DNA of 44,538 bases. Source: Octopus sinensis. Its lineage: Eukaryota. The notes beneath the pieces were generated by a model. That model ran no database searches. It had not been told where the DNA came from and worked only from the letters and a program-made list of their open reading frames with translations. Below, one piece after another: positions 1-25,476 of the stretch (its first letter is position 1; every line of letters begins with the position of its first letter). Position numbers and translations under genes: made by a program. The stretch lies in assembly GCF_006345805.1 (NCBI RefSeq), contig NW_021835033.1, forward strand, positions 1 through 44,538. The letters are read 5' to 3'.

Positions 1-42
1 TAAAATTTGTCCTGTTTATAAGTATACCATATGTTACACCAC

Positions 43-75
<33 letters not shown>

Positions 76-134
76 CATACAAATATATATTATGTATGTA
101 TGTATATGTGTATATAATATATATATATATATAC

Positions 135-375
135 CGGGTAGTACGTAAACAATAAATGTGAAACAAGGTGAAAAAAAAGAGTACTCAAATACCAGGGATA
201 GAGTATATGCTTATTAAAAGCAGCAGAAATTCAACAAAACCTGTTACTCGGAGTTTCACGTTCCCGTTCGTCGGACAGTTTTATAATTTTAACAAAAACT
301 GTCCAACGAACGGGAAGTGAAACACAGAGTAGAGTAGTAACAAGTTTGTTGAATTTCTGCTGCTTTTAAATAAAG
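135..375. mobile_element. Penelope-like pseudo-LTR fragment with an inverted partial duplication, inside (TA)n
   Basis: Arms about 210-282 and 295-373 are reverse complements (aaaagcagcagaaattcaacaaa / tttgttgaatttctgctgctttt), each with a hammerhead-like core; flanked by TA microsatellite. Confidence 0.55.
241..278 (-). ncRNA. Minimal type I hammerhead-ribozyme-like motif of the kind found in Penelope-like elements
   Basis: Minus strand reads CUGU-CCGACGA-ACG GGAA CGU-GAAA-CUC C GAG-UA-ACAG: stem I CUGU/ACAG, stem II 3 bp + GNRA loop, near-palindromic stem III, GUA cleavage triplet. One core deviation (U4C). Confidence 0.6.
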
Positions 376-437
376 TATATATATATATGTATGTATGTAT
401 ATGTATGTATGTATGTATGTATGTATATCCCACCCAC

Positions 438-778
438 ATGCTGGGTTCAGTCCAACTGCATGGCACCTTGGGCAACTATCTTGTTTTATACCCTCGGACT
501 AACCAAGACCTTTGTGCGGTCAGAAACTGAAAGAAGCCCATCGTGTGTGTGTGTGTCTTTGTATGTGTGTGTGTGTGCATGTGTGTGTGTGTGTGTGTGT
601 ATGTTTGTGTTTGTCACTGTAACTTAGCATTTCAGCGAAAGAGATCAATAGAATAAGTTCCAGGATTTATGATACAAAAAAGGAATTACTCCTGGGGTCG
701 ATATATTCAGCTAAAATTCTTCAAAGCAATGCTCCAACATGGTCCCTGTCTAATGACTGGTACAAGTAAAATATTAAA
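438..778 (+). mobile_element. SINE family A, diverged 5'-truncated copy
   Basis: gggttcagtccaactgcatggcaccttgggcaa ... internal (TG)n ... ctccaacatgg ... acaagtaaaa. Confidence 0.7.
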
Positions 779-786
779 AATATATA

Positions 787-1190
787 GGCACAGGAGTGGC
801 TGTGTGGTAAGTAGCTTGCTAACCAGCCACAAGTTTCCGGGTTCAGTCCCACTGCGTGGATATTGGGCAAGTGTCTTCTGCTATAGCCTCGGGCCGACCA
901 ATGCCTTGTGAGTGGATTTGGTAGACGGAAACTGAAAGAGCCCTGTCGTATATATGTATAATAATGCTGTGTGTGTTTGTGTGTCTGTGTTGTCCCCCTA
1001 GCATTGCTTGACAACTGATGCTGGTGTGTTTACATCCCCGTCACTTAGCGGTTTGGCAAATGAGACCGATAGAATAAGTACTGGGCTTACAAAGAATAAG
1101 TCCAGGGTCGATTAGCTCGACTAAAGGCAGTGTCTCCAGCCTGGCTGCAGTCAAATGACTGAAACAAGTAAAAGAGTAAAAGAGTAAAAG
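787..1190 (+). mobile_element. tRNA-derived SINE family A, full length
   Basis: A-box-like TGGCTGTGTGG, B-box-like GGTTCAGTCCC, internal TA/TG microsatellite, (GTAAAAGA)n tail; about 10 related copies in the window. Confidence 0.85.
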
Positions 1191-1309
1191 ACATAAATAT
1201 ATAATAGGTAATAGGTGCAGGTATGGTTGTGTGGTTAAGAAGTTTGCTTCCCATCCCTAAGGTTTCAGGTTCTGTTCCTCTGCATGAATTGAGGAATAAC
1301 ATAAATAGA

Positions 1310-1478
1310 AATACACTCTTTTCTACTCTAGGCACAAGGCCCGAAATTTTTGGGGAGAGGGCTAGTCGATTATGCAACTGGTACTTAATTTATTGGCCCC
1401 CAAATGGATGAAAGGCAAAGTCGACCTCGGCTAAGAATTTCACCTGGCGTGCTAACGTTTCTGCAAGCTCGCCGTCTT
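1310..1478 (-). mobile_element. SINE family B copy
   Basis: ggatgaaaggcaaagtcgacctcgg and gtgctaacgtttctgcaagctcgccg match the reverse complement of family B. Confidence 0.7.
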
Positions 1479-1674
1479 ATGAATAGAAATATACTGAGTA
1501 GCATTGTTGAAACAATACTGACAGTGAAGATCTCCATGGAAATTGTTGATCTTTCGAATATATCAAATAAATTTTCGCTTAAAATAAATATTTGTCCTTT
1601 AAAGGACTCAGGTAAAATATCCTTAATGTTATTAATTAGAGGAGCTATCCAAGGAAAATTACTTGCTAAAGCAG

Positions 1675-2250
1675 CAGACATGTTTTCTTACAAACATCAG
1701 ACATCTTTTTTTCAAACATCAGGTATATCTTTGGTCTAACAATAGCCATGTCTTCTTTCAAACATAGGACACATCTTTCAAGCACCTGACATGTTTTTCT
1801 TACAAACATCAGACATCTTTTTTTACAAACATCAGGTATGTCTTTGGTCAAACAATATCCATGCCTTCTTTCAAACATAGGACACATCTGACATGTTTTT
1901 CTTACAAACATCAGACATCTTTTTTCAAACATCAGGTATGTCTTTGGTCTAACAATAGCCATGTCTTCTTTCAAACATAGGAGACATCTTTCAAACATCT
2001 AATATGTCCTTCAAACATCAGACATGCCTTTGGTCAAACAATAGTCACATTTTCTTCAAACATTGGATATGTCTTGTTTCAAACATCAGACATGTCCTCT
2101 TTCAAACATCAAATATGTCTTTGATCAAACAATAGCCATATCTTCTTTTTCACATAAGGCACATCTTCCATCAAGCATCAAACATGTCTTCCTTCAAACA
2201 CCAGACATGTCATTGACCAAACAATAGCCATGCTTTCTTTCAAACACATC
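1675..2250. repeat. Hierarchical minisatellite (about 20-bp subunit CAAACATCAGACAT..., about 110-120-bp higher-order unit)
   Basis: Recurrent caaacatcagacatc / ggtc(t/a)aacaatagccatg blocks. Confidence 0.85.
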
Positions 2251-2258
2251 ACTGTTAT

Positions 2259-3235
2259 TTAACCCGTATTTATTTTGAGGTTACCTGTGTTTCTTTCAAT
2301 CAATTTTAAATATAACAAAGAATTTAGTAAAATAACTTAGTTATCATTAAGCTAGTGTTAGGAACATAGATTATGACTAAGGTTTGGTGGAAGATTTTAA
2401 TTCAAAACTTATGAAAATAAGACATTTGTACTACAGAACCAGAAGTGGTTTCAGCTGGGTTGGTATTAAAAGGGTTAAGAATTGTTTCTCTATTATATAT
2501 TTAACCCTTTCGTTACTGTATTTATTTTGAGATGTTCTGTGTTTCTTTCAATTAATTTTAAATATAACAAAGAATTTAGTAAAATAACTTTCTTATCATT
2601 CAGCTAGTGTTAGGAACATAAATTGTGACTAAGGTTTGGTGGAAGATTTTAATTCAGAACTTATGAAAACAAGACATTTGTACTCAGAGCCAGAGGTGGT
2701 TTTAGCTGGGTTGGTATTAAAAGGGTTAAGAATTGTTTCTCTATTATATATTTAACCCTTTCGTTACTGTATTTATTTTGAGATGTTCTGTGTTTCTTTC
2801 AATTACTTTAAATATAACAAAGAAATGAGTAAAATAAACTTGGTTATCATTCAGCTAGTGTTAGGAACATAAATTGTGACTAACGTTTGGTGGAAGATTT
2901 TAATTCAAAACTTATGGAAACAAGACATTTGTACTCAGAGCCAGAGGTGGTTTTAGCTGGGTTTGGTATTAAAAAGGTTAAGAATTGTTTCTCTCTCCGA
3001 TATCTTTTAACCCCTTTCGTTACTGTATTTATTTTGAGATGTTCTTTTTTCTTTCAATTACTTTAAATATAACAAAGAAATGAGTAAAATAAACTTGGTT
3101 CATTCAGCTAGGGGTTAGGACATAAATTGTGACTAACGTTTGGTGGAAGATTTTTTATTCAAAACTTATGGAACCAAGACATTTGTACTACAGAGCCAGA
3201 GGTGGTTTCAGCTGGGTTGGTATCAAAAGGGTTAA
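2259..3235 (+). mobile_element. Head-to-tail array of four piggyBac-type MITEs (about 225 bp each plus spacer)
   Basis: Units run TTAA|CCCTTT...AAAGGG|TTAA (the first unit start and third unit end are diverged); TTAA at 2259, 2475, 2501, 2726, 2752, 2978, 3007, 3232; spacer gaattgtttctct... Confidence 0.85.
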
Positions 3236-3340
3236 AGGGTTTGCACTAAATACCTCTAAACACACCTATAACGCTTTTCTTAAGACTTCTCTTGTTAAAC
3301 TCATTTTACATGAATTCTTTACCGATTCTTTACTCCACAG

Positions 3341-25476
<22,136 letters not shown>

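What the first reader, a model, noticed from the sequence alone, without database searches (positions are those of the whole stretch)
210..373. Minimal hammerhead-like motif with a non-canonical core, in an inverted pair inside a sodium-channel intron
Seen: the minus strand 278->241 folds as a type I hammerhead, CUGU-CCGACGA-ACG(GGAA)CGU-GAAA-CUC(C)GAG-UA^ACAG, with the predicted cut between + positions 245 and 244. An inverted, more decayed copy sits on the + (sense) strand at 299-343 (CCAACGA...GAAACACAGAGTA). Established: minimal hammerheads with a palindromic stem III occur in pseudo-LTRs of Penelope-like elements and can act as dimers, and inverted pLTR arrangements are typical. Inference: both copies carry C at position 4, so U4C may be a family-wide variant core rather than decay. 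The sense copy carries a G5A change expected to inactivate it, which fits selection against cleaving the host pre-mRNA.
Basis: partly seen in the sequence, partly recalled or inferred. Interest (0 to 1): 0.75.

Follow-up and report, generated by a model that had tools for sequence, protein, structure and literature searches.

The report
Penelope stub, drifting hammerhead core
This is an ordinary back-to-back pair of cut-short jumping-gene ends in what is likely a sodium-channel intron; the odd letter in its self-cutting-RNA motif is shared by over a thousand older copies, the youngest copies appear to have switched back to the standard letter, and whether either version cuts RNA is untested.

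Summary
The motif is real and is the hammerhead of a Hydra-clade Penelope-like element (PLE). Window 134-375 is two 5'-truncated ends joined back to back in a TA repeat. C4 is inherited, not decay: 1,178 exact copies carry it, against 90 with U4 and 61 with G5A, about the CpG decay rate of a control CpG in the motif (172). So the sense copy's G5A needs no selection. Both arms are also predicted to be locked in a -87 kcal/mol hairpin. C4 is not family-wide, though: the youngest subfamily (2,699 exact copies, intact RT-endonuclease ORFs) has canonical CUGAUGA and nests inside the C4 copies in an endonuclease tree, a likely reversion. The C4 motif stayed frozen (0 of 38 changes) while its flank changed 22 of 106, which suggests constraint. 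Genomic stubs show no sharp peak at the predicted cut. Cleavage is untested. The locus is ordinary; the family is a modestly interesting natural allelic series.

The parts
41..133 (.). TA/CATA microsatellite, left flank (likely insertion target)
   Evidence: the same kind of flank in relatives
134..209 (-). PLE 'tail': the ~70-nt extension that follows the pLTR end and precedes the ORF in full-length copies
210..240 (-). 3' end of the pLTR downstream of the hammerhead, including the 3' strand of an extended stem I
241..278 (-). Minimal type I hammerhead motif, C4 variant, identical to the subfamily's majority form; C4 at 273, predicted cut between 245 and 244
279..298 (.). Head-to-head junction of the two 5'-truncated arms, in the hot zone just upstream of the motif
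299..343 (+). Second, decayed hammerhead copy: C4, G5A (CpG transition), stem II deletion, stem III change, 7-nt duplication
344..375 (+). pLTR 3' end of the inverted copy, without tail
   Evidence: (I18)
376..428 (.). TA/TATG microsatellite, right flank
3341..3451 (+). First sodium-channel exon found in the window (domain I S3-S4); sets host sense as +

Best explanation
Window 134-375 is a back-to-back pair of 5'-truncated ends of a Hydra-clade Penelope-like retrotransposon flanked by TA repeats; its hammerhead motif carries a C4 shared by over a thousand copies and likely inherited from the source element, and both motifs here are predicted to be silenced by pairing with each other. Shown: family identity, ORF linkage, copy counts, subfamily series. 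Inferred: reverse transcription started at two internal sites (the pLTR end and the tail end), both cDNAs stopped just upstream of the motif, and they joined head to head. Inferred: in the source lineage the C4 motif was a constrained but weak ribozyme, probably needing the element's protein or a second copy, and not required on the RNA that is copied; the youngest lineage went back to U4 by a CpG-type transition. G5A in the sense arm is neutral CpG decay after insertion.
For: 6 of 6 loci fetched for a linked endonuclease ORF carry the C4 motif 1.2-1.3 kb downstream on the same strand. Long ORFs show RWK, DKT, YRDD, CxxC and CxH. Published Hydra-2_aMil has the same stem I, stem III arms and cut site with a U4 core. 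Exact 26-mers: C4 1,178, U4 90, A5 61; control CpG 172 (151 vs 172, p=0.27). The young canonical variant has 2,699 copies. Of 20 long-ORF loci, 18 have U4, 1 has C4, 1 has no motif found. The U4 clade has support 100/99 inside C4 copies, and C4 monophyly is rejected, p-AU 0.0036. Oldest versus next subfamilies: motif 0 of 38 changed against 22 of 106 flank columns, p=0.001. Later changes hit N7, the stem III loop base and GGAA>GCAA, both GNRA. Three lineage changes in the extended stem I keep pairing, one of them compensatory. Hairpin -87.3/-92.9 kcal/mol, stem I probability about 1e-25. PMC11167929 (passages): a PLE hammerhead is protein-assisted, uncut RNA is the main template, and RT starts at two internal sites.
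Against: No cleavage data. The fold is not the predicted minimum for the C4 or U4 versions. No real covariation inside the three core stems. No Rfam hammerhead hit, though the canonical young motif is missed too. No sharp peak of 5' truncations at the predicted cut. From the window's subfamily to the youngest, the motif changed as fast as its flank (5 of 38 vs 11 of 104, p=0.77). The tree root rests on one long-branch copy with no motif (L200). U4 exceeds A5 (90 vs 61, p=0.02), so a few U4 copies may be inherited. The window's arms are unevenly decayed (7 vs 2 events), matched by only 1 of 22 other pairs.
Confidence: 0.8

Rival explanations
1. The C4 motif was catalytically dead for the whole C4 period and was conserved for another job, such as a binding site for the element's protein or a promoter element near the RNA 5' end.
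For: U4C lowers activity considerably in vitro (PMC3088659, passages). Stem II is only 2-3 bp. No truncation peak at the cut. Hammerhead mutants did not impair insertion in vitro for another PLE. 19 of 30 copies start within 24 nt upstream of the motif.
Against: The positions that changed are mostly those a hammerhead tolerates. The lineage returned to the canonical letter. A viroid U4C variant stays infectious.
Confidence: 0.35
2. One reading: the sense copy was inactivated by selection because it would cut the sodium-channel pre-mRNA.
For: The sense arm has 7 changes against 2 in the antisense arm, in the tail of the sample. A preprint reports that tandem retrozymes avoid introns in Xenopus (abstract).
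Against: G5A is a common CpG transition (61 exact copies). L027 shows 7 vs 1 as well. The hairpin is predicted to block folding anyway. One lesion would suffice, so several point to ordinary decay.
Confidence: 0.05
3. The palindrome is a separate non-autonomous unit (a MITE-like or retrozyme-like element) that spreads as such.
For: Many copies look alike over the full 174 nt.
Against: Junctions differ from copy to copy. Each subfamily makes its own fold-backs: 30 of the first 100 young hits lie in 15 inverted pairs under 300 nt apart (counted by eye). The same ends continue into ORFs.
Confidence: 0.03

Closest known systems
Hydra clade of C-terminal-endonuclease PLEs (Craig et al. 2021, PMC8557442), nearest motif Hydra-2_aMil and Hydra-2_aJap; Hydra-1_Obim is a different published family
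   Same: RWK, DKT, CxCX5C linker, CxxC/CxH, TA targets, tail, inverted 5'-truncated copy, and a type I hammerhead with the same stem I and stem III arms
   Different: All 26 Hydra rows of File S2 have U4; here the older subfamilies have C4. Stem II is only 2-3 bp with a GNRA loop. The unit is about 3.3 kb and the tail about 70 nt rather than 30-40.
Minimal hammerheads of metazoan PLEs (Cervera and de la Pena 2014, PMC4209133)
   Same: Type I, short palindromic stem III, dispersed single and opposite-strand copies; natural core variants exist (U3-A8)
   Different: The parts read (1-2 of 4) describe no position-4 variant; stem II here is shorter than their 6-8 bp.
Viroid U4C hammerhead variant (cited in Perreault et al. 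2011, PMC3088659)
   Same: Same core change, reported to keep enough activity in vivo
   Different: A viroid hammerhead with tertiary contacts, not a minimal PLE motif amplified over a thousand times
Anolis Poseidon PAc hammerhead (Frangieh et al. 2024, PMC11167929)
   Same: Tail explained by two internal RT start sites; no genomic or read signal at the cut
   Different: A different clade; tested in vitro, where it is protein-assisted

Membership tests
Hydra-clade PLE | Single ORF, RT followed by C-terminal GIY-YIG endonuclease | tested here: met
   711-aa ORF with YRDD. The C-terminal region aligns with the Pfam GIY-YIG stretch of homolog P0002. Pfam finds nothing on the ORF itself.
Hydra-clade PLE | RWK motif and DKG changed to DKT | tested here: met
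   RWK and DKT in long ORFs; DKT also in C4-linked L121
Hydra-clade PLE | CxCX5C linker, CxxC and CxH around the endonuclease E and N | tested here: met
   Complete in C4-linked copies. The second linker Cys is replaced in 17 of 20 long-ORF loci.
Hydra-clade PLE | Insertion into (TA)n, tail at one end, inverted truncated copy | tested here: met
Hydra-clade PLE | Canonical hammerhead core in the pLTR | tested here: inconclusive
   Met in the youngest subfamily, not met in the window's subfamily, which has C4
Hydra-clade PLE | Placement inside the Hydra clade in an RT phylogeny with published members | not tested
   Published proteins were compared by eye only
Canonical hammerhead ribozyme | Core C3 U4 G5 A6 N7 G8 A9, G12 A13 A14, U16.1 H17 | tested here: not met
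   C4 in the minus copy; C4 and A5 in the plus copy
Canonical hammerhead ribozyme | Three helices supported by covariation | tested here: inconclusive
   95.4% of cells paired but core stems nearly invariant; one compensatory change in the stem I extension; cross-species stem variation in File S2
Canonical hammerhead ribozyme | Site-specific self-cleavage | not testable with these tools
   Indirect genomic test gave no sharp peak
Non-LTR retrozyme | Tandem non-coding repeats each with a hammerhead | tested here: not met
   Inverted pair with variable junctions, continuous with coding elements

The most novel reading that the evidence does not exclude
One retrotransposon lineage records a natural dial on its own ribozyme. 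It amplified through several successive subfamilies with a selected, attenuated C4 core and a paired base of stem II, then regained canonical U4 while losing that base pair. Both states would give low, protein-gated cleavage, and the intact young elements plus their C4 ancestors would form a ready series for testing what PLE hammerheads do.
Probability: 0.3. Interest if true: 0.6.

Novelty: new variant of a known kind. Interest (0 to 1): 0.33.

Why it matters
What hammerheads do in Penelope-like elements is open (PMC8557442 says their function is unclear; PMC11167929 finds cutting unnecessary for insertion in vitro). Here an element multiplied over a thousand times with a core change known to slow cleavage, kept the motif frozen, and later appears to have reverted. 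That either shows fast cleavage is not needed or that weak cleavage is tuned. Searches that demand CUGA would miss this whole layer of repeats. The single insertion in the channel gene most likely has no effect on the host.

Tried and rejected
Rfam scans found no hammerhead in the window or on the canonical young motif, so the blank says nothing. Pair counting on 39 copies gave no useful covariation in the core stems; the two both-sided cells are single old copies with both CpG letters decayed. Co-folding two copies did not give the dimer hammerhead for any of three versions; such models handle three-way junctions poorly. Truncation test at the cut: 301 hits at the cut site, 45 of the first 100 junctions by eye, 11 of 30 in fetched loci (9 by script plus 2 miscalls); control window 9 nt away, 131 hits, 60 of 100 by eye, 22 of 30 by script. 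That is roughly 110-135 against 80-96 before correcting for different letter filters and a shared microhomology: no sharp peak. Sequencing runs: no RNA holder listed, contigs only, so no ends, strand or level. Downstream-flank divergence as an age measure was dropped because the flank defined the subfamilies. Subfamily B (n=3) and the U4 majority in B and E1 reflect loci picked by the U4 pattern and were not used. No motif was found beside the most divergent ORF copies (L200, L203, L216), so the original U4>C4 step is undated. Lunse et al. 2017 on dimeric PLE hammerheads is not held and is recalled only; it or its supplements may already list C4 variants.

Full report
Observation. The plus copy at 299-343 has C4, G5A and several more lesions. 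The two arms form one hairpin of -87.3 kcal/mol, z -16.6. The isolated arm does not favour the hammerhead fold: -4.5 against -7.9 kcal/mol. Plus-strand exons match sodium channels. The first found, 3341-3451, is internal, no earlier exon motif turned up in 1-3400, and the contig begins at window position 1, so the intron placement is an inference. The animal is probably an octopus; that is my guess from genome size and repeat content, not a call result.

What it is. The stretch is a repeat: all 40 scored candidates of 1,781 matched. Alignment of 23 distinct loci shows a shared pLTR end, a tail of about 70 nt on one arm only, TA repeats outside and variable junctions; the window element is 134-375. 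Walking upstream from unfolded copies led through a long 3' UTR into an endonuclease ORF. In 6 of 6 such loci fetched, the C4 motif lies 1.2-1.3 kb downstream on the same strand; these loci were found with a C4-derived query. A protein search gave 150 scored matches of 3,630 candidates, many with open frames over 700 aa. These carry RWK, DKT, YRDD, CxxC and CxH, and C4-linked copies have the full CxCX5C linker: the marks of the Hydra clade in PMC8557442 section 11. The C-terminal region aligns with the Pfam GIY-YIG stretch of a bivalve homolog. In that paper's File S2 all 26 Hydra rows have U4, and Hydra-2_aMil shares stem I, the stem III arms and the cut site with this motif. The motif is therefore a hammerhead by descent.

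C4 is inherited. Exact 26-mer counts in G000: C4 1,178, U4 90, G5A 61. Positions 4-5 form a CpG. A control CpG in stem II shows 172 decayed copies, not different from 151 (p=0.27). The oldest subfamily sampled shows CG, TG and CA at this site (10, 10 and 4 of 26), which points to an ancestral CG; the sample was seeded by a TG copy.

C4 is not family-wide. A degenerate pattern finds 5,623 copies; of the first 100 listed, 61 have U4, 38 C4 and 1 G4 (counted by eye). The canonical variant alone has 2,699 exact copies. Of 20 loci picked for long ORFs, 18 have U4, 1 has C4 and 1 has no motif found. An endonuclease tree of 49 rows (7 duplicate loci and most motif-less rows left out) is a ladder. Window-like C4 copies have end branches of 0.027-0.054, C4 copies with G at the base of stem II 0.010-0.024, U4 copies 0-0.025. 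U4 copies form one clade (100/99), and holding the 9 C4 rows together is rejected, p-AU 0.0036. The root is a single long-branch copy, but end-branch lengths point the same way. With U4 in all published Hydra motifs, the likely history is U4>C4>U4.

Was the C4 motif constrained? Between the oldest subfamily and the next well-sampled one, the majority motif differs at 0 of 38 positions against 22 of 106 flank columns (p=0.001); against the window's subfamily 1-2 of 38 versus 25 of 106 (p=0.014). Across the series only five motif positions change: 4, 7, one loop II base (GNRA kept), the base of stem II, and the stem III loop base. In the extended stem I one pair goes C-G (10 of 15) to A-U (41 of 44) and two others move to G-U wobbles; a fourth is not kept. 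Against this, the core stems show no covariation, and from the window's subfamily to the youngest the motif changed as fast as its flank.

Does it cut? Untested. If cut RNA were the template, stubs should pile up at the cut. They do not clearly: about 110-135 junctions there against 80-96 at a control window, some 2% of copies. That fits PMC11167929, where uncut RNA is the main template and cutting needs the element's protein. U4C is known from a viroid, slower in vitro yet infectious (PMC3088659). Instead, 19 of the first 30 C4 copies begin within 24 nt upstream of the motif, where this insertion's junction also lies. The RNA may start there; that is inference.

This locus. Read from either side, the antisense arm is made first and the motif is then captured; the computed probability of stem I is about 1e-25. 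An inverted pair offers no second sense copy for a dimer. The sense arm has 7 changes against 2, but L027 shows 7 against 1 among 23 pairs. G5A is the expected CpG transition. Selection for the host is not needed, though not excluded without an annotation.

Literature seen. PMC4209133: parts 1-2 of 4. PMC8557442: passages, section 11, supplement part 2 of 59 and search hits. PMC3088659: passages and section 8. PMC11167929 and PMC13481778: passages; the latter uses a CYGANGA descriptor for viral hammerheads. bioRxiv 10.64898/2026.07.22.740005: part 1 of 5. Six searches showed no report of a C4 core in a PLE; Lunse et al. 2017 was not available and may bear on this. Hammerhead numbering and the expected effect of G5A are recalled. 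Earlier scan notes found the same family and C4 elsewhere in this genome, after my reading was set.

Verdict. An ordinary PLE fold-back stub. The family is a new variant of a known kind, with a constrained C4 phase and a likely reversion. Interest 0.33.

Noticed in passing
L157-L176, endonuclease linker: In 17 of 20 long-ORF loci the second Cys of the Hydra CxCX5C linker is replaced (mostly by F or Y), although these are the youngest copies; C4-linked older copies keep it.
   Followed up: partly
L061-L090, upstream of the motif: 19 of 30 copies are 5'-truncated within 24 nt upstream of the motif, a possible mark of the RNA start or an RT stop.
   Followed up: partly
one search list, position at the base of stem II: U4 travels with A at the base of stem II (56 of 58), while other letters there travel with C4 (37 of 42): each version has one apparent weakness.
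   Followed up: partly
window 3341-25500, + strand: Sodium-channel domain I exons only (3341-3451, about 6740-6990, 12300-12443, about 25340-25475) on a short unplaced contig; the S3-S4 exon is divergent in its extracellular loop.
   Followed up: partly
window 1663-2240 and 2266-3000: Tandem arrays with 23-nt-based and about 251-nt units in the same intron.
   Followed up: no
window 430-1200: Two copies of a common tRNA-like SINE-type repeat about 400 nt apart (D11-D17); the identification is recalled, not tested.
   Followed up: no
runs X10, X19, X20 on window 214-282: Contigs from three other coded organisms cover the C4 motif with no other letter listed at position 4, and X19 also holds the young U4 form; a hint that both layers are shared across species.
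   Followed up: partly
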